A stretch of DNA of 34,557 nucleotides from Candidatus Nanoarchaeia archaeon (GCA_035290625.1 DATDTY010000015.1:1-34557), one strand, 5' to 3'; shown: positions 2,916 to 20,646, numbered from the stretch's first letter. Made by a program: numbers and translations. Notes: generated from the letters alone by a model not told the origin.

Positions 2916-3078
2916 GGCTCCGGTGAAAATCATTGCTGCCGCCTCTTTGTGAGGCTCTTAAGGATTGCCATAGACGGAATTGAGGGGGTCGCCCCATTCG
3001 GGGCTTCAAAGGTACGCAAGCAGAGGATAGAACGAGCCGAGCCGGCGGCAGCCGCGAAGAGAGATTTTCGCCGAATCC
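2916..3078 (+). ncRNA. Candidate structured RNA, unassigned dispersed family, copy A
   Basis: P1 CGGTGAAAA/TTTTCGCCG; P2 GCTGCCGCC/GGCGGCAGC; TTT-GTGA-GGCTC...GAGCC-GAG; apex GGGGGTCG-CCCC-ATTC-GGGG. Confidence 0.65.
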
Positions 3079-3125
3079 AAGCAATTACGAAGATTTATTA
3101 AGAAGTTCTTTCCTACTGCTGGACT

Positions 3126-4136
3126 ATGAAGGTAGCATTTTTCGGACTGGAGAATGAGCACGAGGAGTATGCCAAAAAAGTTCTCAAGAAGCATCAGCTG
3201 TCCTTCTATCGCAACCATCTCGACGAGCAGACCCTTGCCCTTATAAAGGATGTTGATGTGCTGGCTGTCTTTGTCTTCTCTCCAGTAACCAGGGCAGTTA
3301 TTGACAGCCTGCCCAAGCTTAGGCTTGTCACAACAATGTCCACAGGCTTTGACCATATCGATCTTGAATACTGCAAGAAAAAGAAGATTACTGTCTGCAA
3401 TGTTCCAACCTATGGAGAGAATACTGTAGCAGAGCATACCTTCGCCCTTATACTGGCATTATCACGAAGGCTCTATCAGGCAATCGAGAGGACTCACAAA
3501 CAGCATTCATTTGAGACTGACAGCAGCTTGAGGGGATTTGACCTTAAGGGAAAGACCTTAGGCGTTGTGGGATGCGGCCATATCGGCAGGCATGTCGCCA
3601 GGATTGGTGTAGGGTTTGAGATGAATGTAGTCGCCTTTGACCATTATCGCGATGAAAAACAGGCACGCAAGATTGGCTTCACCTATGCTCCTTTTGACGC
3701 AATCCTCAAGAAATCAGATATCCTCACCCTGCATGTTCCTTACATGAAGCAGACCCATCACCTCATTGATGCAAAAGCGATCAGGAAGATGAAGAAAGGC
3801 GCATTGATTATCAACACAGCAAGGGGGGGAATTATTGATACCCCGGCATTAGTTGATGCCCTGGAAAGCGGAAAGCTTGCTGGAGCTGGCCTTGACGTGC
3901 TTGAGGGAGAGTGCGAAATCAAGGAGGAGGCTTCTGTCCTGAAGAAGGAATACAAGGCAACCTGCAATCAGCTCACTACTTTGCTTGAAGACCATGAGCT
4001 GATGAAGATGGAGAACGTGATCATCACTCCGCATAACGCCTTCAATTCAAAGGAAGCTTTGCAGCGGATCCTTGACACAACGATTCAGAATATTGTCAGT
4101 TTTGCACAGGGAAAGGTGGAGAATCAGGTGAAGTGA
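3126..4136 (+). CDS. D-isomer-specific 2-hydroxyacid dehydrogenase (D-lactate dehydrogenase-like)
   Basis: STGFDHID, GVVGCGHIG, INTARG, GLDVLE and TPHNAF motifs. Confidence 0.93.
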   Translation: MKVAFFGLENEHEEYAKKVLKKHQLSFYRNHLDEQTLALIKDVDVLAVFVFSPVTRAVIDSLPKLRLVTTMSTGFDHIDLEYCKKKKITVCNVPTYGENTVAEHTFALILALSRRLYQAIERTHKQHSFETDSSLRGFDLKGKTLGVVGCGHIGRHVARIGVGFEMNVVAFDHYRDEKQARKIGFTYAPFDAILKKSDILTLHVPYMKQTHHLIDAKAIRKMKKGALIINTARGGIIDTPALVDALESGKLAGAGLDVLEGECEIKEEASVLKKEYKATCNQLTTLLEDHELMKMENVIITPHNAFNSKEALQRILDTTIQNIVSFAQGKVENQVK

Positions 4137-4146
4137 CGAAATCCAG

Positions 4147-4638
4147 CTACTTCAGCATATCTATCGTCTTTCTTAGTTGATAATGAGTATCCAAGTAACC
4201 TTCTCCTGGCACATACATTCTAAGGTGGCCGCCCCTATATAGGTCTAGAATACCAATAGGATCTTTTGGATGGATAATCACAGACTGCTCAGACACAATG
4301 GTGTAATCCTGGGTGTTGCAGCAGTCTAACAAAAGCGCTAATGCCTGCCCATCCATCTTGTTGATCCAATTCTGCATGATATGCTCTCTTTTACCATCAA
4401 AAAAAATCCACTTGCTTTCCGAACCATCAGTTTCAAGACCATGAGCACTGAGTAGGATATACCCTGTTAAATGGGTTCTTTGGCTATAGGCTTCCAGCAC
4501 TTCTCTAAACAATCGCCGCTTTGTAAACTCTCTTACTATAGTGCCTACATATACCTCCAAATCCTCCGATCCCCTCTCTTGATCAAAGAAATCTGAGGAT
4601 TCATAATACTCACAATGGTCAAAAGTGTATAGTCTCAT
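4147..4638 (-). CDS. Hypothetical protein
   Basis: 163-aa ATG ORF with TTATAA about 26 nt upstream. It has SAHG and DCC motifs reminiscent of a caspase-fold His/Cys dyad (weak). Confidence 0.6.
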   Translation of the reverse strand: MRLYTFDHCEYYESSDFFDQERGSEDLEVYVGTIVREFTKRRLFREVLEAYSQRTHLTGYILLSAHGLETDGSESKWIFFDGKREHIMQNWINKMDGQALALLLDCCNTQDYTIVSEQSVIIHPKDPIGILDLYRGGHLRMYVPGEGYLDTHYQLRKTIDMLK

Positions 4639-4684
4639 GAAGGAACTAGCGTTTTGAGGGAGATTATAACCGTTGCGGCAACAA

Positions 4685-4892
4685 GGGCTCCATCCAAAAA
4701 ATGAAGGTTGCCATCAATTCGTGAGGCTCTTTGCAATGATATGCGCTGCTGGCAGGGGGATGTCCCTACGGGGATGCCAGCCTTATACTGTGAGAAGATC
4801 AGCCGAACCGATGCGCTCCGGAGGAGCACTTGAAAATACCCGAGTATTTTCATTGGCAACCCGACTGAAAGGAGGTTTTTTGGATGGAGCTC
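4685..4892 (+). ncRNA. Candidate structured RNA, copy B (carries a 42-nt insertion)
   Basis: 17-bp P1 GGGCTCCATCCAAAAAA/TTTTTTGGATGGAGCTC; TGAA-GGTTGCCATC; TTC-GTGA-GGCT...AGCC-GAA; GCTGGCA/TGCCAGC; apex GGGGGATG-TCCC-TACG-GGGA. Confidence 0.7.
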
Positions 4893-5009
4893 CTCAAAAG
4901 GTTCGCGAGAGTTCGATTCTGAGGATGCCAAAGCTGCAAAAAAGGTAGTTCAAAACGTCTACAATTATCACAGGTCTTATTATGTAGCTTTAAGAAAGCC
5001 GTAATGAAT

Positions 5010-5249
5010 TCATTTTTCAACATACCATCCAGGAATCTCATCGAAGAAGATGTAATCCCGGCAAACAGAGCTTCTCACCCTGTTCAACTCTTCTGCGGCG
5101 CTGAAATACTCCAGTGATTGAAAAAGAAACGTGAAATAATTATTGAGCACAACATACTTCTTGCATGCAGCAAACAAATCGATTACCCTATTTTGGTCTT
5201 TGGTATGCGCCTCAGCCAAGAGTTCTTCCAGGAGTTGTGTGTCTTGCAT
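5010..5249 (-). CDS. Small hypothetical protein, possibly truncated
   Basis: 79-aa ATG ORF with a TTTATAAA box about 30 nt upstream. Confidence 0.45.
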   Translation of the reverse strand: MQDTQLLEELLAEAHTKDQNRVIDLFAACKKYVVLNNYFTFLFQSLEYFSAAEELNRVRSSVCRDYIFFDEIPGWYVEK

Positions 5250-5395
5250 TTCTGTTCAATGGTTGTGGGCTCTCACTTACTTTATAAAAATTACTACTTT
5301 CGATAGGTGTGATCTTAGAATCAATCACTCATAACTTCACTATCGTTACGGATACTTTTAAATAAACCTCATTGCAACATTGCGCTTGATTACGA

Positions 5396-6289
5396 ATGAT
5401 CTGCATCATCGCTTTGATTGTCTTTGGGATTTTAGGCATTTTCAGCGCAGCGCACAGGAAGCTTGCAAAAGAGGCTCTTGATTGCGTTGCCAGGAGAGTT
5501 GTCCTTAGGCCTTGCGAGACAGGCTTTGACCAGAGGATAAAGAGCCTTGTTGTTGGAAAGTTTCTCCGCTTTCCCTGGCTCGCCAGGCCGCTGTACAGGC
5601 ATTTTGAATCCTTTTCCTGGCTCTTGATTGGCCTGATGATTGTAAGCACGTTCTTTATTGCCCAGGGCGCTTACAATTATGCGAAGTATGGGAACTGCAA
5701 TGGCAGCCAAGGAGGATTCTGCATCTATGATTCCCTGGATGGAAAATCTGAGCTAAAAAACCCAGGCCCCGATGACGATCCCGGCATTGGCCCAATCGAT
5801 GCGCCTGTCCAGATTATCGAGTTTGGCTGCTTTAAGTGCTCGTTTACAAGGGAGGCTGACAAGGTTATCTGGCAGGTTATGGAAGAGTATCCGGAGAAGA
5901 TAAGGTTTGTGTACAGGGATTTTCCTCTCTCAGCAAGGCACAGGGGCGCTGTTGATCCCAGCCTTGCAGCAGACTGTGTGCTTGAGCAGGACCAGAGCGC
6001 ATATTGGCAGTACCGCGGCATTCTTTTCCAGAACCAGAATGCGCTGAGCAATGAAGACCTTGCTGCCTATGCTCAAAACATAAGTATAGACCTGGAGCAA
6101 TGGAAAGAATGCTTTGACTCAGGAAAACACCTTGATGAAGTGGAGCATGACTATGAGGATGGATTGGAAGCAGGAGTGTATGGAACACCCACATTCTTCA
6201 TCAACAACCAAAGCTTTGTCGGGCCTCAGAGCTATAAAACGTTCAAGAGGGTAATCGAAAAGGAGCTGGAGAAAGCGGGCGTCACGTGA
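5396..6289 (+). CDS. Membrane-anchored DsbA/thioredoxin-fold protein
   Basis: Two N-terminal TM helices; GPIDAPVQIIEFGCFKC, FVYRDFPL and GVYGTPTFFIN motifs. Confidence 0.85.
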   Translation: MICIIALIVFGILGIFSAAHRKLAKEALDCVARRVVLRPCETGFDQRIKSLVVGKFLRFPWLARPLYRHFESFSWLLIGLMIVSTFFIAQGAYNYAKYGNCNGSQGGFCIYDSLDGKSELKNPGPDDDPGIGPIDAPVQIIEFGCFKCSFTREADKVIWQVMEEYPEKIRFVYRDFPLSARHRGAVDPSLAADCVLEQDQSAYWQYRGILFQNQNALSNEDLAAYAQNISIDLEQWKECFDSGKHLDEVEHDYEDGLEAGVYGTPTFFINNQSFVGPQSYKTFKRVIEKELEKAGVT

Positions 6290-6465
6290 TCGTTTTAGTT
6301 GGTTAGAAAATCAGCGAAAATTAAACAATTAAATAAAATTAATGAAGATTAAACAATGAAATGCGAATAAAGGCTCAATGAAAATAAAAAGATAAAGACA
6401 GTAATCAGGCATAAAACGGAAGATGATGTCAATGAGAAGCAAATACTAGCTCCGGTCTATTAAAA

Positions 6466-7683
6466 ATGCTCAACACAGAAAAGATACGAAAGGATTTTCC
6501 GATATTGGAAGGCAAGAACCCTCCGGTCTATTTTGACAGCGCATGTATGGCGTTAAAGCCAAGGCAGGTTGTTCAGGCATTAGAGCGCTATTACTATGAA
6601 TTTCCAAGCTGCCATGGAAGAAGCTCGCATAGGCTTGGAAGGAAGCTGAATGACGAGATTGAAGCCAGCAGAAAAGTGATTCAGAGGTTCTTTGGCTCCA
6701 AGGGAGAGGTTGTTTTTACCAGAAACACAACCGAGGCCATTAATCTGGTAGCCAGCTCATTTCCCTTCAAAAAAGGAGATACAGTCATCACAACAGATAA
6801 GGAGCATAACTCCAACCTGGTTCCATGGATACGATTAGCTCAGGAGAAAGGGATTGTCCATAAGATTGCAGCATCTGATGAGAGAGGCCTTTTTTCTTTG
6901 GATTCATTTGAGAGCCTCTTAAAAAAAGCAGGAAAGGAGGGAGCATCGCATAAAAGTATATTGGTCTCAATGGTGCATACCTCTAACCTTGATGGAACAA
7001 CACTTCCTGCAAAGGAGATCTGCAAGATCAGCCATGAGTACGGAGCTGTTGTGCTTCTAGACGGCGCGCAATCTGCCCCGCATAAGGAGATTAACCTAAA
7101 AAAGATTGATGCTGACTTCTTTGCCCTCTCAGGCCACAAGATGATGGGGCCCACAGGGATTGGATGCCTGATTGGAAAGCCGGAAGCTCTCGAGAAGCTC
7201 TCCCAGTTCATTGTTGGGGGCGAGACAGTAACAAACTCAACCTATGAAGGATACACTCCTGAAAGAATACCGAATCGTTTTGAAGCAGGGCTGCAGCACT
7301 ACGCAGGCATCATAGGGATGGCAGAGGCATGCAGGTATATTGAGGCAATTGGGAGATCAGATATAGAAAAGCATGACCTGGAGCTGAATGGGATCATAAC
7401 CCATGGGCTTAGGGATTCTGTCGATATCCTTGGGCCAGAGGATCCTGCAAAGCGCGGCAGCATCTTCAGCTTCTGGATTAGGGGGATGGAAAGCCATGCA
7501 GCTGGCCTGATGCTTGATGCCCGGAATATCATGGTCCGCTCAGGGATGCACTGCTGCCATTCGTGGTTCAATGCCAGGAAGAAGGAAGGGTCTGTCAGAG
7601 CATCCCTGTATATCCATAATACTGCAGAGGAATGCCATAGGTTTATTAATGAGATAAAAAGAATAAAGCGTATTGCGGGGTGA
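6466..7683 (+). CDS. sufS: Cysteine desulfurase, SufS-like (class V PLP aminotransferase)
   Basis: IRKDFPIL, YFDSA, EHNSN, DGAQS, SGHKM and RSGMHC motifs. Confidence 0.9.
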   Translation: MLNTEKIRKDFPILEGKNPPVYFDSACMALKPRQVVQALERYYYEFPSCHGRSSHRLGRKLNDEIEASRKVIQRFFGSKGEVVFTRNTTEAINLVASSFPFKKGDTVITTDKEHNSNLVPWIRLAQEKGIVHKIAASDERGLFSLDSFESLLKKAGKEGASHKSILVSMVHTSNLDGTTLPAKEICKISHEYGAVVLLDGAQSAPHKEINLKKIDADFFALSGHKMMGPTGIGCLIGKPEALEKLSQFIVGGETVTNSTYEGYTPERIPNRFEAGLQHYAGIIGMAEACRYIEAIGRSDIEKHDLELNGIITHGLRDSVDILGPEDPAKRGSIFSFWIRGMESHAAGLMLDARNIMVRSGMHCCHSWFNARKKEGSVRASLYIHNTAEECHRFINEIKRIKRIAG

Positions 7684-7687
7684 AACC

Positions 7688-8386
7688 ATGAGGTATGATC
7701 AAATAACAGCTGTTGTGCTGAGCCTTGTTTTGGTTATGTTGGTTATCAATTATTTCCAGATCCAGTCAGTCCAGAAGACCTTGAAAGGAACAGGATTGGC
7801 GACTGTTGGAAATACCGACACTGTGAAAGGCGCTGTTCCTGTTGAATTCTATGTGATGAGCCAGTGCCCCTATGGAATCCAGGTTGAGAATGCCATAGCT
7901 CCAGCTTTAGGGTTATTGGGAGATGCTGTTGATTTCAGGGTTGACTACATTGCGGATGGAAGCGGCGGAAGATTTACAAGCCTTCATGGCCAGCCTGAAG
8001 TCGAGGGAGATAAGATCCAGCTGTGTGTCCAGGAGCACTTCCCCCAGGAGTTTATGGATTTTGTCACATGCCAGAATCAGCAGCCTGCAAACCTTGGAGG
8101 AACCGTAGAGTCATGCAGCAGAGCCGCAGGCATTGATTCGCAGAACGTGCTTGCATGCGCTTCAGGAGAGGAAGGAAACATGCTTCTGGAGCAGTCGATT
8201 GCAGCTTCAAGGAATGCAGGAGCGACAGGAAGCCCGACCATGTTCGTCAACAACAAGCCGTATAGAGGAGAAAGAAGCTCGCAGGCTTTCCTGGCAGCAA
8301 TCTGCAATGAGCTTGCTGTGAAGCCGGCTGCCTGTAACAGCATTGTCGGAGGAGAGGCTGCTGCTGTGCAGGGCGGATGTGAGTAG
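7688..8386 (+). CDS. Membrane-anchored thioredoxin-fold (GILT/DsbA-like) protein
   Basis: N-terminal TM helix; FYVMSQCPYG, SLHGQPE and GSPTMFVN motifs; Cys-rich. Confidence 0.75.
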   Translation: MRYDQITAVVLSLVLVMLVINYFQIQSVQKTLKGTGLATVGNTDTVKGAVPVEFYVMSQCPYGIQVENAIAPALGLLGDAVDFRVDYIADGSGGRFTSLHGQPEVEGDKIQLCVQEHFPQEFMDFVTCQNQQPANLGGTVESCSRAAGIDSQNVLACASGEEGNMLLEQSIAASRNAGATGSPTMFVNNKPYRGERSSQAFLAAICNELAVKPAACNSIVGGEAAAVQGGCE

Positions 8387-8471
8387 GGGGTAGTTTGTAT
8401 GTTTGGCATTTTGGTTCCAAAAAAGAGTACAGGGCTCTTGGCTTAAATGTATGGGAACTGGAAAGGCGTTC

Positions 8472-9209
8472 TTACACTTTTTCTTTCTTATCTTCAAGGT
8501 TAGTTCTTTCATCTCGTGCTTTAACCGCCTTATACCACAGTACGTGCTCATAGATGCTTGACCATAACATTCCAAAGGTAAAAGCAAACATCAATTCTTC
8601 CAAGGGCACTCCAAGAAGCAATACTCCTGAAATTGCTGAAAGATTCCACACTTCTTGAACCAAACCAGGATAACCTAGGTTAAACAAAAGGAAAAATCCA
8701 AAATAGAGGGCTAGGAAGGATAACCCTCCAATCCAGACTTTTCTCTTTAGATCAGGCCGGCAGAAAATTGCGGCTATCCCGCCAACAAACATGGCGATAC
8801 TCGCTGAATAAATGGGATTCAATTTAGTAAATAATTGTAATGGAAGGAAAACAATCACCGGAGAAGCTAAAGCAAGTAGATGCAATCTATGTTTTTTTCT
8901 ATGTCTTTCATGCTTGCTTATTTCTTGATGGTTCACTCTAAGTAAAGCTTCATACATGATCGCCCCAATCCCACCAATAGCAAAGCTGAAAATAAAGCTC
9001 TCGATATCAAAGCCGGTTCTACTAGCTAGGTTAAATAAAGATGGAGGGCTCCAGTATTCGGGCACGAACAAATGTTCGGTTAGTCCAAAAGGCGCAGTGA
9101 AAATACTTACCCAAAACATTTCTTTACGGAGTTTTGGCTTAACCAACCAGATAAGCAGCCAAACTGACAGAAGTACTAAAGACGCTGTTAACCATGGATT
9201 CAATGCCAT
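8472..9209 (-). CDS. Lycopene-cyclase-domain integral membrane protein
   Basis: Multi-TM protein with a duplicated W...G(F/V)(D/P)(I/L)E(S/E)..F.F motif. Confidence 0.7.
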   Translation of the reverse strand: MALNPWLTASLVLLSVWLLIWLVKPKLRKEMFWVSIFTAPFGLTEHLFVPEYWSPPSLFNLASRTGFDIESFIFSFAIGGIGAIMYEALLRVNHQEISKHERHRKKHRLHLLALASPVIVFLPLQLFTKLNPIYSASIAMFVGGIAAIFCRPDLKRKVWIGGLSFLALYFGFFLLFNLGYPGLVQEVWNLSAISGVLLLGVPLEELMFAFTFGMLWSSIYEHVLWYKAVKARDERTNLEDKKEKV

Positions 9210-9271
9210 CGTTTCTCTTTTGCAGCTTTCCTCTCGTCAACATTCATCTTGCATATCGGATCCTGTACCGT
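9200..9271 (-). pseudogene. YHS-domain N-terminal remnant
   Basis: GAGGT SD, then ACG (probable mutated ATG) VQDPICKMNVDERKA, matching the YHS DPxCxMxV start. It ends after 23 codons at the next gene start. Confidence 0.55.
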
Positions 9272-9362
9272 ACTACTGACCTCAAGATCATTTTAACGGA
9301 TGCTTTGGCAGCCTCCATCTACCCCTTTTTTTGAGAGAACAATCTCCCATGTTTTTTCCATG

Positions 9363-9470
9363 TTACGGCCTCAGCCATGTTGGGTGCATTATCACCAGCA
9401 TAATTATAAAGAATGCTGCAAATATCCCCCATACCATCGCATTCTTAATTCTCCTTTTGTCTAATGGCAT
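9363..9470 (-). CDS. 35-aa single-TM peptide (not in the ORF track)
   Basis: MPLDKRRIKNAMVWGIFAAFFIIMLVIMHPTWLRP*; GGAGAGG SD upstream; overlaps the end of the upstream gene. Confidence 0.5.
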   Translation of the reverse strand: MPLDKRRIKNAMVWGIFAAFFIIMLVIMHPTWLRP

Positions 9471-9682
9471 TTTTTATCCTCTCCGGGTTTCTTATCGTCA
9501 TGCATATGCCTCATCATAAAGTAATGCGATAGCGGACAGAGCAATAATACCGCCCAAAATAAATAACTTCTGCTTATTCCAAAAAAATATATGGCTCCAA
9601 TTAACAAAAGCAAAGGCACGCCGCAGCACACAATCATCATTAAGGCGTGGTTATGCTTTAATTTGTCTATCCAGTTCTTCAT
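9461..9682 (-). CDS. DUF2933-like small membrane protein (copper-cluster associated)
   Basis: HALMMIVCCGVP...LLLCPLSHYFMM, His-containing tail ending KCH; GGAGGG SD before the ATG at 9682. Confidence 0.75.
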   Translation of the reverse strand: MKNWIDKLKHNHALMMIVCCGVPLLLLIGAIYFFGISRSYLFWAVLLLCPLSHYFMMRHMHDDKKPGEDKKCH

Positions 9683-9745
9683 GTTTACCCTCCAAACATT
9701 ACGGTAATTGCATTGAGGGTAACCCCTCCTCGATTCACCCATCTA

Positions 9746-9778
9746 TATTTAGATATATCGAAATATTTAAATATTTCG
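9746..9778. promoter_or_regulatory. Palindromic operator/TATA between divergent genes (probable PadR site)
   Basis: Perfect 20-bp palindrome CGAAATATTTAAATATTTCG (9759-9778) overlapping the imperfect palindrome TATTTAGATATATCGAAATA. Confidence 0.55.
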
Positions 9779-9796
9779 GTCGCTTCTACACAGTAT

Positions 9797-10228
9797 ATGC
9801 AGGTGAAGATCGGAAGTTTAGTCAAGTTTTATACAATTCTTCTGCTTAGTGAAGAGCCCAAGCATGGCTATGACCTTATGAAAGAGCTGGAAGAAACGTT
9901 AGGAAGAAAGATAAGCACCAGCCAAGTATATCCCTTCCTTAAGCTCTTAGAGAAAAATAGGCTCATTAAAATAGAGGAGATAGGGGAAAGAGAGAAAAAA
10001 ATATATCAGTTAACAAAAAACGGGAAAAAATTCGTTAATGTTTTCCTTCAAAGATTCGGGGATTTGATTGATATAGCCGTAGAGCCAAAACTCACAACAT
10101 GCGCGCATTGCAGCTGCAAGGTCTATGAAGGGGGCCATGCTGAACAAATGAAAGGAAACCTATTAAAATTCTGCTGCATGCACTGCGCCAGCGCCTACAA
10201 AAACATGTTAAAGAAACGTTTAAGGTAA
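9797..10228 (+). CDS. PadR-family regulator with C-terminal TRASH-like metal-binding motif
   Basis: PKHGYDLMKEL, VYPFLKLLEK and KKIYQLTKNG motifs; C-terminal CAHC...FCCMHC. Confidence 0.85.
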   Translation: MQVKIGSLVKFYTILLLSEEPKHGYDLMKELEETLGRKISTSQVYPFLKLLEKNRLIKIEEIGEREKKIYQLTKNGKKFVNVFLQRFGDLIDIAVEPKLTTCAHCSCKVYEGGHAEQMKGNLLKFCCMHCASAYKNMLKKRLR

Positions 10229-10229
10229 A

Positions 10230-11714: not shown

Positions 11715-11723
11715 GGGCATAGA

Positions 11724-12581: not shown

Positions 12582-12624
12582 ACAATTCATCTTTAGGTGA
12601 CCTCGACTTTACAGCTCAGATAAG

Positions 12625-12799
12625 GGAGGTTGGTGCAAAATTGTAGGTTGCCATCATTTTGTGAGCAACATCGCTAATGAATAAGCATCGACCTCGAGGG
12701 GATGCTCCATCCGGGACGAATGTCGATTATCACAGACATCTATGCCATGTGCGAACTCGATGGCAATCCGAGCATTGCGAGAATTTCGCACCAGCCTCC
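12625..12799 (+). ncRNA. Candidate structured RNA, copy C
   Basis: P1 GGAGGTTGGTGC/GCACCAGCCTCC; TGTA-GGTTGCCATC/GATGGCAATC; TTT-GTGA-GCA...TGC-GAA; ATCGAC/GTCGAT; apex AGGGGATG-CTCC-ATCC-GGGA. Confidence 0.7.
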
Positions 12800-12864
12800 A
12801 GATAATGGAAAGTCTTAAATATTCTCTCTGCAAGATACATTTCTTGAGCAGGTAAGCAGATGCA

Positions 12865-13812: not shown

Positions 13813-13848
13813 TAATCATTAAAGCCAAAACCAAGCACCCCTTATTAT

Positions 13849-14421
13849 TTATTTCCTCACCACTTTCTCCTTCCCTCCCGTCAGATCAACCACCTGGGAA
13901 GGCTGCCCGTTCTTCTCCCCTTCATAGATCACAATGGGAACCTGTGCCTTGAAATCATGGTGCAAGTTCTCCAGAGAAGTCATGAAGTCCTGGCCTGCCT
14001 TGTTGGCAGAGGTGGTGATAATAGGAAAGCCGAGTTTCTCAACGACAGTATGGATCCAGTGGTTGGGAATTCTCACGCCGAGAGTCTTGCCTCCCGGGTT
14101 TACAGCCTGGCTCACGGCCTTCTTATTCTTTAGCTCCAGGATAAGAGTCAATGGCCCCGGAAGCTTCTGCACCCACTTCCTCTCCTTCTCAGATACCCTG
14201 CAATTCTTCAGTATCCATTCCTTTGAGGGAGCGATGATGGAGAACGGAGCAGTCTTCCTTGCCTTGAGCTCCCTGATCTTCCTGACTGCAGCATCATCCT
14301 TTGCATTGCAGCCGATGCCGTAGATCGTGTCTGTAGGATAGATGAAAATCTCCCCTTTCTTTATCTCAGCAAGGCAGATGTCCGCAGTATACAGCACGTC
14401 TTCCTTTGAGAGCACTCTCAT
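13849..14421 (-). CDS. tsaC: L-threonylcarbamoyladenylate synthase (single YrdC domain)
   Basis: YPTDTIYGIGC, KAR, PGPLTLIL, GVRIP and TTSAN motifs. Confidence 0.92.
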   Translation of the reverse strand: MRVLSKEDVLYTADICLAEIKKGEIFIYPTDTIYGIGCNAKDDAAVRKIRELKARKTAPFSIIAPSKEWILKNCRVSEKERKWVQKLPGPLTLILELKNKKAVSQAVNPGGKTLGVRIPNHWIHTVVEKLGFPIITTSANKAGQDFMTSLENLHHDFKAQVPIVIYEGEKNGQPSQVVDLTGGKEKVVRK

Positions 14422-14665
14422 GCCACCTCGGCATTGCCGGGAATTTATAAGAGTATGGTTTAGATTTTATATAATTTATATAGAACTCCAGTACTATCCC
14501 CAAGTGTGGAACTTCGCTTTCTGGAAAACCTGCCGAAGTTATTACTGCTGAATGGATCGCATCTTCCCGAGGATAAAACGCAAAAAACAACGTATCTGTT
14601 CTAATCTATAGTTTTAAGATTCAATGTATTTATAAATTCAGCAGCCAGAAAAAAACTTCAGAAAG

Positions 14666-17620
14666 ATGGATAACAAAACCCTTCAGTATGTTCGAAAGCG
14701 GGATGGCTCAAAAGCGGAGTTTTCCAGAGACAAGATCACTGAAGCCATTTTCAAGGCTGCCGGGTCTGTAGGAGGCAGCAACAGGAGAGAGGCAGCCAAG
14801 CTTGCTGATTTGGTTGTGGCGCTTATGGAAGAGGCATTTCCTTCCTCGCACATCCCGCATGTTGAGGAGGTCCAGGATATCGTTGAGAAAGTCCTGATTG
14901 AGAACGGTCATGCAAAGACTGCAAAATCCTATATCCTGTATCGGGCCAGGAGGGCAAAAGAGCGCGAAGAGGAAGTCACCCAGAAGGTCGAATCAGAACA
15001 TGCTGAACAAGGGTCTGCTGAAAGCCCGGGCCAGGCCGTTGCTGAGATGTTCACCTATACCTCAAAGCTTTCCAGGCTTGTGCCAAAGGAGAGGATTGAG
15101 ACATACCGGAGGCTCTATTATCTGCTCAAGGACATGATTGCTGCAGGCGAGCTTCCAAGCCATCCAAACTACCTGGGCGATAACGAGCTTGCAGAGAACA
15201 TCTACAGGAACAAGTATTATCTGAAGGATTTTAAGGGAGAGTGCATTGAGGGCTGTCCTGAAGACGTCTTTGCCAGGCTGGCCTCATATATCGCTGCAGT
15301 TGAGCCAACAGAGGATACTCAGAAGAAGTTTGCAATTGCGTTCTACAAAGACCTGTATCATGGAAGCTATCTTCCAGGAGGCAGGGTGATGGCCGGAGCA
15401 GGGGATCTCTACAGGCTCAAGACCCTTGCCAATTGCTTTGTGAGCCTGATCCAGGGAGACGATATCGAGTCTATATTCGGCACTGCCTATGAATGTGCGC
15501 GCACCTATAGTTATGGAGGCGGCATTGGTGTGGATATCTCAAACCTCAGGCCGACAGATTCCATTGTGCATAATGCAGCAGACCGCTCAACAGGAGCAGT
15601 CTCATTTATGGAGCTCTACAGCCTCACCACAGGCTTAATTGGCCAGTCAGGAAGAAGAGGGGCGCTTATGCTTACCATGGATGTCAAGCATCCTGATATC
15701 CTCCGCTTCATTGATGTCAAGAAAATCCCGAATTGGGTAACAAAGCAAGTTATCAAGCAGTGCGAATGGACAGGAAAATTCAGCCAAGCCCAGCTTGGAG
15801 AGATTGAAACGCAGGTGAGGGATAACACCCAGGTGAGGTTTGCCAATATCAGCATCAAGGTTTCTGATGAGTTCATGGGAGCAGTAGACGAACAGATCAC
15901 CTATGGGGAGAACGCTATCATGGTCTACAAGAAGTATACGCAGCATATCGTAAACGACGCTCCGCAGAACAAGACCCTGCACTACTCCTACGGCATTCCC
16001 TCAAAGAACCTTGAGGATTACAGCTTAGAGGCTGGCTTTAACACACTTCAGGACGCCAACACCTACCTCAAAGAGAAGTATCATATCGCGCTCAAAGAGG
16101 CTGACCTCGCATTTGAACGGAGAGATGTGTTCGGAGATTTTGTTGTCCCCCTGGAGCATGAGAGCTATCATCTGGCGATCCATAGGTCTGGTGATTTTAT
16201 GCTGTACTTCAGTTCTTCCCATACAGGCGAGATCAAGAGGCTTGTCAAGGCAAGAGATGTCTGGAACCGCTTTATTGCCTCAAACTATAAGACTGCAGAG
16301 CCTGGCCTGATATTCTGGTCTACAATGGTGAAGTATTCACCCTCAAACTGCCTTGGCGTGCCGATTGCAAGCACCAATCCCTGCGGAGAAGTTCCTTTGG
16401 AGGATGGCGGAGCCTGCAACCTCGGCTCTATAAACCTCTCACGCTTTGTGAAAGGGGGGTATACTGAAGAGGCGAGCATTGACTGGAAGGGAATCCAGGA
16501 TGCAACCTCCAACCTCGTCCGTTTTCTTGATAACGTGATCAGCTGGAATTCGGTGCTCAATCCCCTGGAGAAGCAGAGGGCTGCAGCATCCAGCATGAGG
16601 AGGATCGGCCTTGGCATCATGGGCATTGCAGATATGCTGAATCAGCTCGGGATTGGCTATGACAGCGAGGAGGGCATAAAGCTCATGGAGAAGGTCTCAT
16701 CAGTGATTGCAAACAGCGCGTATGGTGCATCAGCCATGATTGCTGCTGAGAAGGGCTCATTTCCGCTCTTCAACCTTGAGCAGTATGCAAAGAACAGGTT
16801 CTTCATTGAAAGCCTTGCTGCCGAAACAAGAGAGGCAGTGGTGAAGCATGGCTTGAGGAATGTTGCCATCCTTTCAATTGCGCCCACAGGAACCATATCA
16901 AATGCCATCCTGGGGTTCACGAACAAGGCTAGGAATTATGTTGGCGTTTCAGGAGGCATTGAGCCGATCTTCAGCCTCTACTACACAAGACGATCCGAGT
17001 CATTCAACAAATTCTTCAAGGTATTCCATCCAACTGTGCAGGCCTATATTGACCTGAAGGAGATGAACACCAAGGTCCAGGATACAAAGGATATCGATGA
17101 TCTGCAGAAGCTGCTTCCCAGCCATTTCTTCCGCACAGCGCACTTCATTGCAGCAGAGAAGAGGGTTGTGATCCAGGCAATCTGCCAGAAGTATATTGAC
17201 CACAGCATCAGCTCTACGGTAAACCTGCCTGAGAGCGTTGATCCGGAAACGATCACAAACATCTACCTCAATGCCTGGAAGCAGAAGCTCAAGGGCATTA
17301 CGATCTACAGAGATGGAAGCAGGTATCCAATCCTCTCCATCGAGGCAGAGCAGACAGAGTTCAAGGATATCAAGGAGAAGCAGTTCCGCTACCTTACAGA
17401 GGAGGGCGAGCAGATCGTGAAGGGAGACGAGGTTGTTGTGCTTCCGAATGCCGAGCTCAGCACACCTTTCCATCTCATGAAGAACGGCAAGCCTAATGAT
17501 ATCATCCTTGAAGAGATCTCAGCAGAGGAGCAGCTGGTGCAGCCTGAGGTCCCTGTTTCTGGAAAGGTATGCAAAGTGAAGTTTGAGAACGGCAAGCTTG
17601 TCAAGGACTGCGGTGATTGA
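14666..17620 (+). CDS. nrdJ: Adenosylcobalamin-dependent (class II) ribonucleotide reductase with N-terminal ATP cone
   Basis: VRKRDG ATP cone; LANCFV, RRGALM, TNPCGE, ACNLGSINL, APTGT and KGITIYRDGSR motifs; C-terminal Cys pair; no adjacent small-subunit gene. Confidence 0.9.
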   Translation: MDNKTLQYVRKRDGSKAEFSRDKITEAIFKAAGSVGGSNRREAAKLADLVVALMEEAFPSSHIPHVEEVQDIVEKVLIENGHAKTAKSYILYRARRAKEREEEVTQKVESEHAEQGSAESPGQAVAEMFTYTSKLSRLVPKERIETYRRLYYLLKDMIAAGELPSHPNYLGDNELAENIYRNKYYLKDFKGECIEGCPEDVFARLASYIAAVEPTEDTQKKFAIAFYKDLYHGSYLPGGRVMAGAGDLYRLKTLANCFVSLIQGDDIESIFGTAYECARTYSYGGGIGVDISNLRPTDSIVHNAADRSTGAVSFMELYSLTTGLIGQSGRRGALMLTMDVKHPDILRFIDVKKIPNWVTKQVIKQCEWTGKFSQAQLGEIETQVRDNTQVRFANISIKVSDEFMGAVDEQITYGENAIMVYKKYTQHIVNDAPQNKTLHYSYGIPSKNLEDYSLEAGFNTLQDANTYLKEKYHIALKEADLAFERRDVFGDFVVPLEHESYHLAIHRSGDFMLYFSSSHTGEIKRLVKARDVWNRFIASNYKTAEPGLIFWSTMVKYSPSNCLGVPIASTNPCGEVPLEDGGACNLGSINLSRFVKGGYTEEASIDWKGIQDATSNLVRFLDNVISWNSVLNPLEKQRAAASSMRRIGLGIMGIADMLNQLGIGYDSEEGIKLMEKVSSVIANSAYGASAMIAAEKGSFPLFNLEQYAKNRFFIESLAAETREAVVKHGLRNVAILSIAPTGTISNAILGFTNKARNYVGVSGGIEPIFSLYYTRRSESFNKFFKVFHPTVQAYIDLKEMNTKVQDTKDIDDLQKLLPSHFFRTAHFIAAEKRVVIQAICQKYIDHSISSTVNLPESVDPETITNIYLNAWKQKLKGITIYRDGSRYPILSIEAEQTEFKDIKEKQFRYLTEEGEQIVKGDEVVVLPNAELSTPFHLMKNGKPNDIILEEISAEEQLVQPEVPVSGKVCKVKFENGKLVKDCGD

Positions 17621-17623
17621 GTT

Positions 17624-17754
17624 TCAAGTAACATCGGGGGTTCTGTTAGCCGACCTACGCGTAAACATCTAGAGAGACATCTCACTTTTCTAGAAGATAG
17701 GTAGTATCCAGACCGCATAAATAGGCTAAAGCAACCTCTCGTTCTTGTTGTTGA
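17624..17754 (+). other. Long imperfect hairpin between convergent genes
   Basis: Nested stems TAACA/TGTTG, GGGGGTT/AACCTCT, TTAGCC/GGCTAA, ACCTA/TAGGT and TCTAGA/TCTAGA. Confidence 0.55.
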
Positions 17755-17766
17755 TCTATAATCAAG

Positions 17767-18090
17767 TTATACCTTCACTTGAACGAGCGGTTTTACGCGC
17801 CCCTTCTCCACTTCGGAATCAACAACGGACCAATAGTATGCAATGAACTTCTCTACATAGGGATTTTCCCTGTTTAATGCATACATTTTTGCCTTTCCAA
17901 CATTCCTTGTATTGACAACGATCTTTCTTCTTATGAAAAGTTTCCAGATTTCTTTTAACGCAGTGTAGCTCACGTCTGAGAACCGAGCAATATCTTTCAT
18001 TGAATAATCAAATTCTGAATGAACTATTAAAAAATTCCATAGTCTATTCCGGACGGTATTCCCTTCCAGTCTTAGAAATGCTGATGTCAT
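17767..18090 (-). CDS. Small winged-HTH protein
   Basis: FDYSMKDIARFSDVSYTAL...TRNVGKAKMYALN. Confidence 0.8.
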   Translation of the reverse strand: MTSAFLRLEGNTVRNRLWNFLIVHSEFDYSMKDIARFSDVSYTALKEIWKLFIRRKIVVNTRNVGKAKMYALNRENPYVEKFIAYYWSVVDSEVEKGRVKPLVQVKV

Positions 18091-18193
18091 GGAATAAGGA
18101 ACCTGGCCCTTGTATATAAAGGTTTCTTTTTTGTACTTTAAGGGTCAAGAAAGCGACCCAAACTTTATTAAGCCGGTAGTATCGTCTTAATCT

Positions 18194-18511
18194 ATGCCCA
18201 AAGTGAAAAGGAGTGAATATATCAAACTCAGTAGAACCGTCATTAGAAAATTGTACGATGGAACTTGTTTTGGCAAGGGTTCCCTGTATCTTGAAACTCT
18301 ACAGCACGGCATTCCTCCTGAGTATGGAGGCAAAGTAGAGATCGTACTCGATGCTTTGGTTAAACAGCGCGTTTGCGGAAAGAAGAAGAAGGAACATGGC
18401 TGGAAATATTATCTGAATATGGAGAGAATAGACAAAATCAAAGAAATACTAAAAGAGAAGGACGAAAGATCAATAATTCCGCTATTGTTGATGTTACCGA
18501 ACATCTTGTAA
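18194..18511 (+). CDS. Small hypothetical protein (winged-helix-like)
   Basis: 105-aa ORF divergent from the HTH gene, with TTTATTAA about 25 nt upstream. Confidence 0.65.
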   Translation: MPKVKRSEYIKLSRTVIRKLYDGTCFGKGSLYLETLQHGIPPEYGGKVEIVLDALVKQRVCGKKKKEHGWKYYLNMERIDKIKEILKEKDERSIIPLLLMLPNIL

Positions 18512-18546
18512 ATATGACTGCTGTCGGAGATGCAGAGATTTGGTGA

Positions 18547-19242
18547 TTAACGATTTTCTACATGGATTGTTGAATCCTTCATACCCAATTTAAGGATGTC
18601 ATCGAGGCTTGCCCTTTCAGCCGGAACTATGCCGTCAAGAGCGTCTGTTTTGTTTCCGTCCTTGAGATCTCCTACACACCAGACCTTATCCCAAAGATTA
18701 AAGGCATAACCAGCCTGCGCAAAACCAATGAGCGCGTCATGCATTGTCCCATCATACAAAAGACGCCTTTCTGCTTTGGCAAATCGTATTTTTTGATGAA
18801 GAAAGTCATCATACCGGCCACTTCGATCCTGTAATCTGAAACAGTCTATTCGCCTGGCTGGAGCTGTGATTTCCGCGAGAAGATTGAGAGACTCATCCCA
18901 CATTGCTTGCTTGAGAGATGATGACTGAGACTTGAAACCTGATGCCGGAGGATGAGAGATCATATAAACTCCCGTATTATCATATGCTGCGTGGGATTGA
19001 TTTTTTATTTCTATCATACGTGCAATTTCTTCTCCAGTAGAGAAGCCCATTCGCTCCAGATCTTTTCTAGATTGGGCAAGATATTCCTGCCATTCTTCGG
19101 GATTCTTCCTTCGCCATATCCTTACTCCTTCCACAAGAAATACTCTATGAGAGGCGAATAATTCCGGAATGGATACCTTTAGCCTCCCAGAATCCGGGTC
19201 TCTATTTTCGGAGATTACTGAATCTGAATAGAGATGAGCCAT
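18547..19242 (-). CDS. Hypothetical protein
   Basis: 231-aa ORF with GAGGT SD, directly downstream of tfb. Confidence 0.65.
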   Translation of the reverse strand: MAHLYSDSVISENRDPDSGRLKVSIPELFASHRVFLVEGVRIWRRKNPEEWQEYLAQSRKDLERMGFSTGEEIARMIEIKNQSHAAYDNTGVYMISHPPASGFKSQSSSLKQAMWDESLNLLAEITAPARRIDCFRLQDRSGRYDDFLHQKIRFAKAERRLLYDGTMHDALIGFAQAGYAFNLWDKVWCVGDLKDGNKTDALDGIVPAERASLDDILKLGMKDSTIHVENR

Positions 19243-19275
19243 AAAAGACCTCTGCCATTGGGTTTCTAGTAAGAC

Positions 19276-20196
19276 TTATTTCTTCCGCTTAACCTTCTTT
19301 ATCTCCCGCTCCAGCTTAAGCTCTTCAAGAAGTTCCTTGTAGCGGTTTCGGATTGTGACTTCAGTGACTCCTGCCACGTCTGCAACCTCTCTCTGAGTCC
19401 TCTTCTCTCCATGGATGAGGGCTGAAACATACAACGCAGCTGCAGCAATCCCTGTCGGCCCTCTTCCTGAGGTCAGCTCAGATCTCTGTGCGCGCTCAAG
19501 GATCTCAACAGCCTTTGATTGCGTCTCTGCAGTGAGCTTTAATGAGGATGCAAACCTGGCGATGTAGTCAGAAGGGTTGGATGGCCTGATTGTGATCCCA
19601 AGCTCTCTCGTGACAAAACGATACGTCCTTCCGATCTCTTTCTTCTCTATTCCAGAAGCTTCAGAAAGCTCATCCAATGTTCTTGGCACTTCATGCCTTC
19701 TGCATGCTGCATAGAGCGCTCCTGCAACAACAGATTCCATAGACCTTCCCCGTACAAGGCCCCGCTGGACAGCAAGGGTATAAATCCTGGCAGATTCCTC
19801 TTCCACAGAACTTGGAAGCTTAAGGTAGGAAGCAACACGCTTCAGCTCTGCCAATGCAAGCTTGAGGTTCCTTTCAATAGCTGTAGAGATCCTGTACTGC
19901 CACTTTCGCAGCCTGAAGAATTTGTTCCTGTCTCTTGCCCCAAGCTGGTAGAGGTCTGCCTTTCTCCCAACCTCAGTCCCCATGCCCTGGTCAAACTGGG
20001 TATAGGTCATGGGAGCTCCGGTTCTCCTTCGTGACTCCCCGCCTTCTGACTCAAACTCACGCCATTCCTGGGTGAAATCGACCATCTTGTCTTCAATGAC
20101 AAGGCCGCAGTCTTTGCAAATGATCTCTCCCTTCTCCTTATTCATGAAGAGATTGATTCCTGCGCATTCCGGACACTTCTTCACATATTGGACCAC
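19276..20196 (-). CDS. tfb: Transcription initiation factor IIB (TFB)
   Basis: Zn ribbon CPEC...CKDCG; EWREF...RTGAP B-reader; RGRS and SGRGP cyclin repeats; TQREVADVAGVTEVTIRNRYKEL. Confidence 0.97.
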   Translation of the reverse strand: MVQYVKKCPECAGINLFMNKEKGEIICKDCGLVIEDKMVDFTQEWREFESEGGESRRRTGAPMTYTQFDQGMGTEVGRKADLYQLGARDRNKFFRLRKWQYRISTAIERNLKLALAELKRVASYLKLPSSVEEESARIYTLAVQRGLVRGRSMESVVAGALYAACRRHEVPRTLDELSEASGIEKKEIGRTYRFVTRELGITIRPSNPSDYIARFASSLKLTAETQSKAVEILERAQRSELTSGRGPTGIAAAALYVSALIHGEKRTQREVADVAGVTEVTIRNRYKELLEELKLEREIKKVKRKK

Positions 20197-20322
20197 TGCC
20201 AGACCCCCAACTTATTTATCGGCATATGATAACACTACTTTTATATACTAAATTCAGTCTCCCTTTATAAATATATCGCTTTTTTGGGAAGGTTTATAAA
20301 TGGCGGTCGGATTTTTGGCCCT

Positions 20323-20463
20323 ATGGGGCTTCCAAAGGAACTTCTGGACATGCTGGCCTGCCCCCAGTGCAAGGGAAAGCTGAAGCAGAACGGAGAGAGC
20401 CTTCTGTGCGAAAAATGCAGCAAGGAGTATCCAATCCAGGATGGGATCCCTATCCTGACATAA
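20323..20463 (+). CDS. trm112: Trm112-like methyltransferase activator (46 aa, not in the ORF track)
   Basis: MGLPKELLDMLACPQCKGKL...LLCEKCSKEYPIQDGIPIL; TTTATAAA about 25 nt upstream. Confidence 0.9.
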   Translation: MGLPKELLDMLACPQCKGKLKQNGESLLCEKCSKEYPIQDGIPILT

Positions 20464-20485
20464 GTCCATCGTTCTGAACAATTCA

Positions 20486-20646
20486 GCTCTGGTGAAAGTG
20501 AAGGTTGCCGCCCTTTCTGTGAGGTTTTGGACCAAGACATCAGCACCGACAAGGGAGTTGCCCCCATGGAGGAATGTCGGTTACCATCAAAAACAGCAGA
20601 GCCGGACTTGGCGGCAACCCAAGCGTTTGCGAGATTTCACCGGAGT
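20486..20646 (+). ncRNA. Candidate structured RNA, copy D
   Basis: P1 GCTCTGGTGAAA/TTTCACCGGAGT; TGAA-GGTTGCCGCC/GGCGGCAACC; TCT-GTGA-GGTTTTG/CAGAGCC-GGA; ACCGACA/TGTCGGT; apex AGGGAGTTG-CCCC-CATG-GAGG. Confidence 0.7.

What the first reader, a model, noticed from the sequence alone, without database searches (positions are those of the whole stretch)
2916..20646. Dispersed family of four 160-210 nt structured RNAs with covarying stems and conserved junctions
Seen in sequence: elements at 2916-3078 (A), 4685-4892 (B), 12625-12799 (C) and 20486-20646 (D) share the same order of parts. (1) A closing stem P1 of 9-17 bp whose sequence differs among B, C and A/D but stays paired. (2) TGWA (TCATT in A). 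(3) P2 G(G)YTGCCRYC / GRYGGCARYC. (4) Pyrimidine run-GTGA, then stem P3. (5) A large variable loop, then stem P4. (6) A G-rich bulge (GGGGGTCG, GGGGGATG, AGGGGATG, AGGGAGTTG) and a 4-bp hairpin. (7) On the return strand, GRR-CY(Y) opposite GTGA, and CRA-minihairpin-GAGR before P1. Compensatory changes are visible: GCCATC/GATGGC vs GCCGCC/GGCGGC, GGCT/AGCC vs GCA/TGC, GTTGCC/GGCAAC vs GCTGCC/GGCAGC. Each P1 has a G-T wobble on the + strand, which favours + strand folding. A, C and D start 5-43 nt after the stop of unrelated + strand genes (LOG, ccdA, trm112); B follows TTATAA at 4664. Inference: a multicopy functional RNA or single-stranded mobile element that I cannot match to tRNA, 5S, SRP, RNase P, C/D or H/ACA RNAs. 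Four copies in 18 kb suggest many more genome-wide.
Basis: partly seen in the sequence, partly recalled or inferred. Interest (0 to 1): 0.9.

Follow-up and report, generated by a model that had tools for sequence, protein, structure and literature searches.

The report
Promoter-edge hairpin mini-transposons, not RNA genes
The four "structured RNAs" are copies of a very abundant miniature non-coding transposon of a small groundwater archaeon that lands at a fixed spot just upstream of gene promoters and keeps a conserved hairpin fold, so the kind of element is ordinary but its landing precision and conserved interior are unusual.

Summary
All four elements exist at the stated places on the + strand, share the described order of stems and loops, and match no Rfam family. 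They are not a private RNA family. The 1.37-Mb genome holds about 180 copies on both strands.

IS5-family insertion sequences in other genomes of the same order carry near-identical terminal repeats. They are therefore MITEs.

They sit in either orientation with their end about 15 nt (duplication plus about 6) from a TATA box and 43-48 nt from the neighbouring start codon. That explains why they seem to "follow" unrelated genes.

The interior fold is real: 86% of cells pair against 33-48% in slid controls, and every pair shows changes on both sides. It is kept across 43 of 149 other genomes of the order. Its loops are more conserved than its stems, and the parent ISs lack it.

No strand or expression evidence supports an RNA gene. 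This scan has reported the same kind of promoter-hugging MITE before, on other DNA of this genome and of other DPANN genomes.

The parts
2916..3078 (+). MITE copy A (163 bp), GGC-type ends (13 of 16 complementary), no recognisable target duplication: an old copy
   Evidence: Covariance-model hit, 111 bits. Terminal repeat and duplication scan.
3094..3100 (+). TATA-like heptamer of the gene starting at 3126. It begins 15 nt after the end of copy A.
   Evidence: Sequence read; flank listing; family-wide peak at 15 nt.
4685..4892 (+). MITE copy B (about 206-208 bp). Its terminal repeat type matches 15 of 16 bases (compared by eye) with a 1183-bp IS5-family IS of another genome of the order (L096). 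It carries an extra two-hairpin module of about 42 nt at about 4812-4853.
   Evidence: Covariance-model hit; terminal repeat 15 of 16; IS in L096. Contigs in three of four runs skip 4812-4853, probably from family copies without the module (table 5).
4663..4669 (-).
   Evidence: Sequence read; ORF list; flank listing.
12626..12798 (+). MITE copy C (173 bp), terminal repeat type GAGGTTGGTGCRAAAT
   Evidence: Covariance-model hit, 116.4 bits; terminal repeat 14 of 16.
12617..12625 (.). Left copy of the 9-bp target-site duplication of C (CAGATAAGG)
   Evidence: 8 of 9 identical to the right copy.
12799..12807 (.). Right copy of the duplication of C (CAGATAATG). A TATA-like motif follows at 12815-12821, and the gene starts at 12865.
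20486..20646 (+). MITE copy D (161 bp), degraded ends (12 of 16), no recognisable duplication and no TATA-like motif beside it
   Evidence: Covariance-model hit, 116 bits.

Best explanation
[quoted passage not shown] These are non-coding derivatives that DDE transposases of small IS5-family insertion sequences move in trans.

Shown:
- Terminal inverted repeats, 8- or 9-bp target-site duplications and about 180 copies in this genome.
- IS5-family ISs of 0.9-1.2 kb in related genomes carry the same terminal repeats.
- Insertion occurs in either orientation at a fixed position: the duplicated 9-mer lies about 6 bp upstream of a TATA box, at the upstream edge of the archaeal promoter, 43-48 nt before the start codon of mostly leaderless genes.
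- The interior is a long imperfect hairpin (P1-P2-tandem G-A-P3-P4-apical hairpin) whose stems covary and whose loops are nearly invariant.
- This interior is absent from the parent ISs and is shared by subfamilies with different terminal repeats and different duplication lengths.

Inferred:
- The transposase, or the way the target DNA is presented at a TBP/TFB-bound promoter, directs insertion to the promoter edge. Pure selection for harmless sites is the less likely cause.
- The interior is kept by selection on the element itself. It would act as a folded or dyad-symmetric DNA module that brings the two ends together and offers conserved loops to a protein, so that well-folding masters out-multiply the others.
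- No transposase of the right kind is in this assembly, so the copies here are either immobile relics or are moved by an IS that was not assembled or binned.
For: Terminal repeats and duplications:
- 130 of 181 copies have ends at least 12 of 16 complementary.
- The best flanking 9-mer is perfect in 20 of 67 full-length copies and has one mismatch in 13 of 67. Mismatched flank pairs give 0.2% and 2.0%.
- At exact ends, 16 of 54 GGC-type copies have a 9-mer duplication and 14 of 16 GGTSGCATTG-type copies have an 8-mer.

Copy number: 189 nhmmer hits and at least 143 covariance-model hits. Several copies lie at contig ends.

Parents:
- 30 loci with DDE_Tnp_1 hits from the order were scanned. Seven held 0.89-1.2-kb units bounded by GG...CC repeats. 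Read by eye, several of these repeats closely match MITE subfamilies: L096, L090, L099, L100, L087, L086.
- L096 has a perfect 9-bp duplication.
- The five ORFs tested from these units best match the NCBIfam IS5-family model NF033579, and 2 of 5 pass its cut-off.
- The nearest annotated plasmid hits are archaeal 'IS5 family transposase' genes at 28-35% identity.

Promoter edge:
- The first TATA-like heptamer lies 13-17 nt from the end (mode 15) in 70 of 240 flanks, against 2.9% of 2000 random intergenic positions.
- 28 of 65 starts facing the 5' end lie at 43-47 nt, and 18 of 66 starts facing the 3' end lie at 43-48 nt. Distances to facing stops are scattered.
- In two arrays, neighbouring copies are separated only by copies of one 8-9-mer.

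Fold: for this genome. In the cross-genome set, 94.1% of cells pair in 13 matches from 11 genomes, against 31-40% when slid.

Spread: full-length matches in 43 of 149 other genomes of the order.

Interior not from the parents: no covariance-model match better than 13.8 bits in the IS loci, and only the terminal 14-16 bp look alike by eye.
Against: - The own genome holds no IS5-type transposase. Its only DDE_Tnp_1 hit is an IS1634-family gene.
- No empty site or presence/absence variant of the four window copies was seen in contigs of four DNA runs, so movement is inferred, not observed.
- Copies A and D have no duplication left.
- Loops conserved more than stems, and a well-defined strand asymmetry, are what one expects of a functional single-stranded fold. 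Transposase binding to double-stranded ends does not explain them.
- The covariation counts rest on alignments fitted to the model and on related copies, so they are inflated to an unknown degree.
- The gene calls behind the distance and orientation counts are crude ORF calls.
- Promoter-edge position could partly reflect survival of harmless insertions in a compact genome.
Confidence: 0.8

Rival explanations
1. The elements are MITEs, but the conserved interior is kept by the host. Once inserted between a gene end and the next promoter, the transcribed hairpin (or its DNA) would serve as a terminator, insulator, RNA-stability element or upstream promoter element. The fold would then be under purifying selection at each locus.
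For: - The elements always lie between one gene's end and the next gene's promoter.
- In copies with decayed duplications (3 or more mismatches, n = 39), pairing in the terminal repeat falls to 0.66-0.72 while core pairing stays at about 0.80-0.82.
- The loops are nearly invariant across 11 genomes of different families.
- MITE transcripts that fold into stable stem-loops, and MITEs that act on neighbouring genes, are described in reviews (passages of PMC3184786 and PMC10969869).
Against: - Orientation is random with respect to the flanking genes (48 against 39) and to the promoter (37 against 24), although the conserved loops are strand-asymmetric.
- The result is biased, because copies with a decayed core are not detected and wrong ends lower the P1 score.
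- G-T pairs are rare, as are A-C pairs (8 and 4 of 462 cells). That fits DNA complementarity better than an RNA helix.
- No expression data exist.
Confidence: 0.12
2. The elements are a family of independently transcribed, functional structured small RNAs. The inverted ends would be a closing helix, not transposon ends.
For: - Strong covariation in every helix and conserved loops.
- A TATA-like motif lies about 15 nt from one end of many copies.
- No known RNA family matches, so such a family would be new.
Against: - Flanking 8-9-bp direct repeats have no place in an RNA gene.
- The closing helix equals the terminal repeats of IS5-family ISs.
- The TATA boxes sit 22-25 nt before the neighbouring start codons and lie on either side of the element. 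They serve the neighbouring genes.
- Orientation is random.
- Copies pile up in arrays that share one duplicated 8-9-mer.
- Copy number differs greatly between genomes of one order.
Confidence: 0.04
3. The apparent compensatory evolution is a by-product. The two arms of each master copy would be kept complementary by conversion or repair within a fold-back, or each subfamily would arise anew as a fold-back of one IS end, with no selection for the fold.
For: - Nearly all pairs are Watson-Crick, and G-T and A-C are both rare. That is what arm-to-arm conversion would give.
- The subfamilies are discrete.
Against: - The unpaired loops are more conserved than the stems: GAG, the G-run, CGA and the mini-hairpin are invariant or nearly so. 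Conversion does not explain this.
- The same asymmetric architecture is shared by subfamilies with different ends and by 11 genomes of different families.
- The parent IS ends lack the interior, so independent fold-backs of IS ends cannot be its source.
Confidence: 0.04

Closest known systems
Prokaryotic MITEs derived from IS5-family insertion sequences (9-bp duplications are those I recall for the IS903 group and 8-bp for the ISH1 group; both figures are recalled, not tested)
   Same: Small size (about 145-210 bp), no ORF, terminal inverted repeats starting GG, 8-9-bp target duplications, many copies, intergenic position, parents with matching ends and DDE_Tnp_1 / IS5-family transposases.
   Different: - The interior is not an internally deleted IS. 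It is a conserved, covarying fold shared by subfamilies with different ends.
- Insertion is at a fixed distance from the archaeal TATA box.
- The subgroup of the IS5 family was not resolved here.
Structured bacterial repeats such as bcr1 of Bacillus and Correia elements of Neisseria
   Same: These are MITE-like repeats that fold into long stem-loops. Compensatory base changes are reported for bcr1, and positions next to promoters and effects on neighbouring genes for Correia (passages of PMC3184786 and PMC10969869).
   Different: - Those are bacterial, with other parents and other target sites.
- The passages I read mention no fixed distance to a promoter element.
- Here the host is an archaeon and the landmark is the TATA/BRE promoter.
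MITE census of prokaryotes (NAR 2024, PMC11602168)
   Same: It reports that a Woesearchaea genome is among the archaea richest in MITEs, at 105 per Mb (passage). This family alone reaches about 130 per Mb here (181 copies in 1.37 Mb).
   Different: The passages I read describe counts only. They give no fold, no parent IS and no insertion site. Its supplementary sequence files were not opened, so these elements may be listed there.
Promoter-targeted retrotransposons of yeast (Ty3 at Pol III start sites; recalled, no call)
   Same: Works alike in one respect: insertion within a base or two of a fixed position relative to a bound transcription-initiation complex.
   Different: Those are retroelements with integrases in eukaryotes. 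Here the elements are DDE DNA transposons in archaea, and no interaction with TBP or TFB has been tested.

Membership tests
MITE (non-autonomous DNA transposon) | Terminal inverted repeats | tested here: met
   130 of 181 copies have at least 12 of 16 complementary end bases, and 84 have 15-16.
MITE (non-autonomous DNA transposon) | Target-site duplication flanking the element | tested here: met
   33 of 67 copies have a 9-mer with at most 1 mismatch, against 2.2% in the mismatched-flank control. 8-mer in 14 of 16 copies of one subfamily. Of the window copies, only C keeps one.
MITE (non-autonomous DNA transposon) | Small, non-coding, multicopy | tested here: met
   Lengths cluster at about 145, 160 and 200 bp. 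About 180 copies. Length-changing insertions and deletions in alignments.
MITE (non-autonomous DNA transposon) | Autonomous element with the same ends | tested here: met
   Found in other genomes of the order (L096, L090, L099, L100, L087, L086). Not found in the own genome.
MITE (non-autonomous DNA transposon) | Presence/absence polymorphism (empty sites) | tested here: inconclusive
   No contig in four DNA runs joins across any of the four window copies. The contigs mostly break inside them.
IS5 family as the mobilising partner | DDE_Tnp_1 transposase of the IS5 family between the matching ends | tested here: met
   The best NCBIfam model is NF033579 for 5 of 5 proteins, and 2 of 5 pass the cut-off. 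tblastn hits are annotated as IS5 family.
IS903 group of the IS5 family (named in earlier scan notes) | Group-level relationship of the transposase; 9-bp duplication | tested here: inconclusive
   A 9-bp duplication is seen for GGC-type copies and for L096, but one subfamily makes 8 bp. No comparison with an IS903 transposase was run. The group assignment rests on recalled properties.
Any Rfam RNA family (C/D, H/ACA, SRP, RNase P, ribozymes, OLE/HEARO-type RNAs) | Covariance-model match | tested here: not met
   No match at gathering scores, and none up to E = 10 inside the four elements.
Kink-turn motif | Three-nucleotide bulge directly 5' of tandem G-A pairs | tested here: not met
   Tandem GA/GA is present. 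However, the two bases 5' of GA pair with the return strand and covary (G-C 124; C-G 67 against U-A 62). The bulge therefore lies one helix further out.
IS200/IS605-derived elements (PATE, REP/RAYT, omega-RNA ends) | No terminal inverted repeats and no target duplication | tested here: not met
   Both are present.
Integron attC sites | Cassette arrays in one orientation; conserved core sites at both ends | tested here: not met
   Copies are dispersed on both strands among housekeeping genes. The ends are transposon repeats. The attC core consensus is recalled and was compared by eye only.

The most novel reading that the evidence does not exclude
The conserved interior is a functional folded nucleic-acid module in its own right (single-stranded DNA, extruded cruciform or RNA). 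A protein would read it through its invariant loops. The module would have moved between different terminal-repeat sets, and so between different IS5-type transposases with 8-bp and 9-bp duplications. It would contribute to the single-base promoter-edge targeting or to mobilisation, as a structure-dependent cofactor element and not as filler between two ends.
Probability: 0.15. Interest if true: 0.8.

Novelty: new variant of a known kind. Interest (0 to 1): 0.45.

Why it matters
The result removes a false lead. An apparently new family of structured RNAs is a transposon family. Covariation alone is not enough to call an RNA gene when the "closing helix" may be a pair of terminal inverted repeats.

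What remains is of interest to people who study mobile DNA and archaeal transcription.

- **Site choice.** A DDE-transposon family inserts within a base or two of one position at the upstream edge of archaeal promoters. If this is active targeting, it would parallel promoter-tethered integration in eukaryotes. It would also give a natural probe of promoter architecture in uncultured DPANN archaea.
- **Conserved interior.** The covarying interior with invariant loops is shared across an archaeal order and across different transposon ends. This suggests that MITE interiors can be under their own selection.
- **Annotation.** About 2% of this genome is made of these elements, so they need masking before RNA-gene or promoter prediction in such genomes.

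Tried and rejected
- **Rfam:** gave nothing at gathering scores, and nothing up to E = 10 within the elements.
- **RNA evidence:** no RNA holder is listed among 20 runs.
- **Empty sites:** contigs of four DNA runs laid on 2000-21000 showed no joint across any element. The contigs break in the elements, and depth rises there.
- **IS6-family partner:** considered because a 915-bp IS6-family IS is in the genome. Rejected because its ends, and those I could delimit among 21 of its 29 metagenome relative loci, differ from all MITE end types.
- **DDE_Tnp_1_5 (PF13737):** no hit in the own genome.
- **Exact end pattern GGCTCMGKWGAAARTC:** nearly confined to this genome. It matches 44 times here and once each in 3 of 60 relatives. 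Only the covariance model showed the spread.
- **Co-occurrence of the MITE with any DDE_Tnp_1 gene across the order:** this is my hand tally from the tables, and it assumes that handles G001-G149 are the same genomes in both. 18 of 43 MITE-positive genomes and 38 of 106 MITE-negative genomes have a hit. There is no clear association, and the test is weak because the family is broad and ISs assemble badly.
- **RNAalifold on the plain MAFFT alignment:** recovered only P1. The structure had to be set by hand.
- **Earlier scan notes searched by sequence:** nothing found.
- **Other readings rejected:** kink-turn, attC site and IS200/605-type element (see membership tests).
- **Protein-coding reading of ORFs 2904-3101, 4673-4948 and 20492-20812:** not pursued, because helix covariation and insertions or deletions argue against it.
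- **Literature:** searches for MITEs in Woesearchaeota and for insertion at archaeal TATA boxes found no description. Subscription journals are not covered.


Full report
**What is there**

The four stretches are real and alike. Neither Rfam search reports any family inside them, at gathering scores or up to E = 10. The only solid RNA hit in the window is tRNA-Ser at 20838-20923. Folded alone, B, C and D are more stable than shuffles (z = -4.08, -3.20, -2.72), and A is not (z = -0.67).

**Copy number**

The window is one whole contig of a 1.37-Mb, 84-contig genome with 46% G+C. A profile made from the four copies found 148 hits in that genome, and a second round found 189. Of these, 150 cover more than 120 of 170 positions, on both strands (102 + and 87 -). 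Split hits merge to 181 copies. That is roughly 2% of the genome (my arithmetic).

A covariance model built from 32 dereplicated copies with a hand-set structure found 141 matches in 440 kb of fetched loci plus the window. It found at least 143 in the whole genome, where only 150 of 486 candidates were scored. In the window it finds only A-D, all on the + strand. Several copies lie at contig ends, as expected of repeats that break assemblies.

**They are transposons**

When full-length copies are lined up with their flanks, the "closing stem P1" turns out to be a pair of terminal inverted repeats that mostly start GGC and end GCC. They fall into discrete subfamilies.
- 130 of 181 copies have at least 12 of 16 complementary end bases.
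- The flanks carry direct repeats. The best 9-mer is perfect in 20 of 67 copies and has one mismatch in 13 of 67. When left and right flanks of different copies are paired, the figures are 0.2% and 2.0%.
- At exact ends, 16 of 54 GGC-type copies have a 9-bp duplication, and 14 of 16 copies of the GGTSGCATTGAAAAGT type have an 8-bp one.
- In the window, C keeps CAGATAAGG / CAGATAATG. A and D keep nothing, and B is unclear.

**Who moves them**

The own genome has no suitable transposase. Its one DDE_Tnp_1 hit is an IS1634-family gene on a 2.3-kb contig without matching ends. PF13737 gives nothing. The genome does hold a 915-bp IS6-family IS, but its ends and those of its metagenome relatives differ from every MITE end type.

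A search of 201 genomes of the order for DDE_Tnp_1 found hits in 72 (the tally includes G131, flagged unpublished). I scanned the 30 loci returned. Seven held 0.89-1.2-kb units bounded by GG...CC inverted repeats around a 275-321-residue ORF. Compared by eye, their ends match MITE subfamilies:
- L096, 1183 bp with a perfect 9-bp duplication, matches the ends of window copy B at 15 of 16 bases.
- L090 matches the GGCTGCGTTC type at 15 of 16.
- L099 and L100 resemble the GGCTCTG types.

The five ORFs tested best match the NCBIfam IS5-family model NF033579, and 2 of 5 pass its cut-off. One of them finds archaeal genes annotated "IS5 family transposase" at 28-35% identity. The subgroup was not resolved. 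The 9-bp and 8-bp duplications are those I recall for the IS903 and ISH1 groups.

**Where they land**

Using crude ORF calls (1296 ORFs, 84% coding), the distance from an element end to a facing start codon is sharply peaked:
- 28 of 65 starts facing the 5' end lie at 43-47 nt.
- 18 of 66 starts facing the 3' end lie at 43-48 nt.
- Distances to facing stop codons scatter from -19 to over 100 nt.

The 61 flanks listed read: element end, about 9 nt, about 5-6 nt, TATA-like box, about 22 nt, ATG. The first TATA-like heptamer lies 13-17 nt from the end (mode 15) in 70 of 240 flanks, against 2.9% of 2000 random intergenic positions.

A, B and C follow this rule. TATA-like motifs lie at 3094, 4663-4669 (for the minus-strand gene 4147-4638) and 12815. 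D does not follow it.

Orientation is free, both relative to the promoter (37 against 24) and relative to co-directional flanking genes (48 same, 39 opposite). Two arrays have neighbouring copies separated only by copies of one 8-9-mer, which indicates repeated hits on one site. Four of six parent ISs with a readable flank also have a TATA-like motif 14-15 nt from an end (read by eye). In a compact genome, the upstream edge of one promoter is just behind the previous stop codon.

**The fold**

The interior is a long imperfect hairpin. On 140 distinct copies, 86.1% of 5174 cells pair, against 33-48% when partners are slid by 1-3 columns. All 42 pairs show changes on both sides. There are 953 such cells against 283 +/- 21 in shuffles.

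The model finds full-length matches in 43 of 149 other genomes of the order, from many GTDB families, with at most 19 candidates scored per genome. In 13 matches from 11 of those genomes, 94.1% of cells pair against 31-40% when slid, and 34 of 42 pairs change on both sides.

The two bases before the conserved GA pair with the return strand and covary (C-G 67, U-A 62). The motif is therefore a tandem G-A inside a helix next to a U-rich bulge, not a kink-turn.

The unpaired parts are the most conserved. GAG, a G of the G-run and the G of CGA are invariant in 55 and in 32 dereplicated copies. They persist across the 11 genomes. The parent ISs share only the terminal 14-16 bp with the MITEs (by eye), and the model finds nothing above 13.8 bits in them. 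Optional modules of about 42-45 nt sit at two fixed places and give the 200-bp size class.

**RNA or DNA**

- Wobble pairs do not favour the + strand clearly: 249 G-T against 156 A-C cells, with some P1 columns mostly A-C.
- In the cross-genome set both are rare: 8 and 4 of 462 cells.
- That pattern, together with free orientation, fits a constraint on DNA complementarity better than an RNA helix. However, the best-scoring copies are the youngest, and the alignments are fitted to the model.
- The recurring GCGAAGC heptamer is, as I recall, a notably stable DNA mini-hairpin. This is a hint, not a test.
- In copies with decayed duplications, the terminal repeat pairs less (0.66-0.72) while the core stays near 0.80. 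This comparison is biased by detection.
- No RNA run holds the region, and contigs of four DNA runs show no empty site.

**Verdict**

The finding is a MITE family of IS5-type parents with two unusual traits: landing at the upstream edge of archaeal promoters, and a conserved, covarying interior with invariant loops that its parents lack. MITEs that fold, sometimes with compensatory changes, are known (passages of PMC3184786 and PMC10969869). A very high MITE density in a Woesearchaea genome is in print (passage of PMC11602168; its supplements were not opened). My searches found no description of the promoter-edge rule.

Earlier notes of this scan describe the same kind of element on other DNA of this genome and in other DPANN genomes. 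I re-derived the ends, the duplications, the IS5-family parents and the TATA distance independently. I could not confirm the IS903-group label.

Noticed in passing
own genome, G000:C49:1-915 (L042) and G000:C67:39801-39832; loci L046, L055, L058: A complete 915-bp IS6-family IS (NF033587, 126.5 bits) with 12-bp perfect ends stops 44 nt before the ATG at C49:960, with a TATA-like motif about 15 nt from its end. A 32-bp end-to-end remnant of it and several metagenome relatives sit the same way. An unrelated IS family thus occupies the same promoter-edge position, which hints that the target, not one transposase, sets the site.
   Followed up: partly
own genome, G000:C33:72974-73300 and beyond; G000:C67:2-450: Arrays of two or three MITE copies of different subfamilies are separated only by copies of one 8-9-mer. 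This points to repeated insertion at one site.
   Followed up: partly
family-wide; in the window about 4812-4853 (copy B): Two optional hairpin modules of about 42-45 nt occur at fixed places (before and after the 3' strand of P2) and give the 200-bp size class. Contigs in three of four runs skip 4812-4853.
   Followed up: no
own genome, G000:C61:271-1821 (L001): An IS1634-family transposase gene (516 aa, NF033559, 267 bits) lies on a 2.3-kb contig. It has no ends like the MITEs.
   Followed up: partly
L086:1318-1352: A G+C-rich hairpin about 100 nt inside one parent IS gives a weak match (13.8 bits, E 0.028) to the model's apical G-rich hairpin. It may be a faint trace of where that part of the MITE came from, or chance.
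   Followed up: no
window 11399-11491 (+): A weak C/D-box-like match (snoZ122, 27.9 bits, below the gathering score, E 4.2) with AUGAUGA and a terminal stem. It lies inside the AhpC/TSA-type ORF 10755-11714 and is probably chance.
   Followed up: no
window 22832-26728 (-) and 26820-27881 (-): Two long ORFs of 1298 aa and 353 aa have no Pfam match at E 0.001.
   Followed up: no
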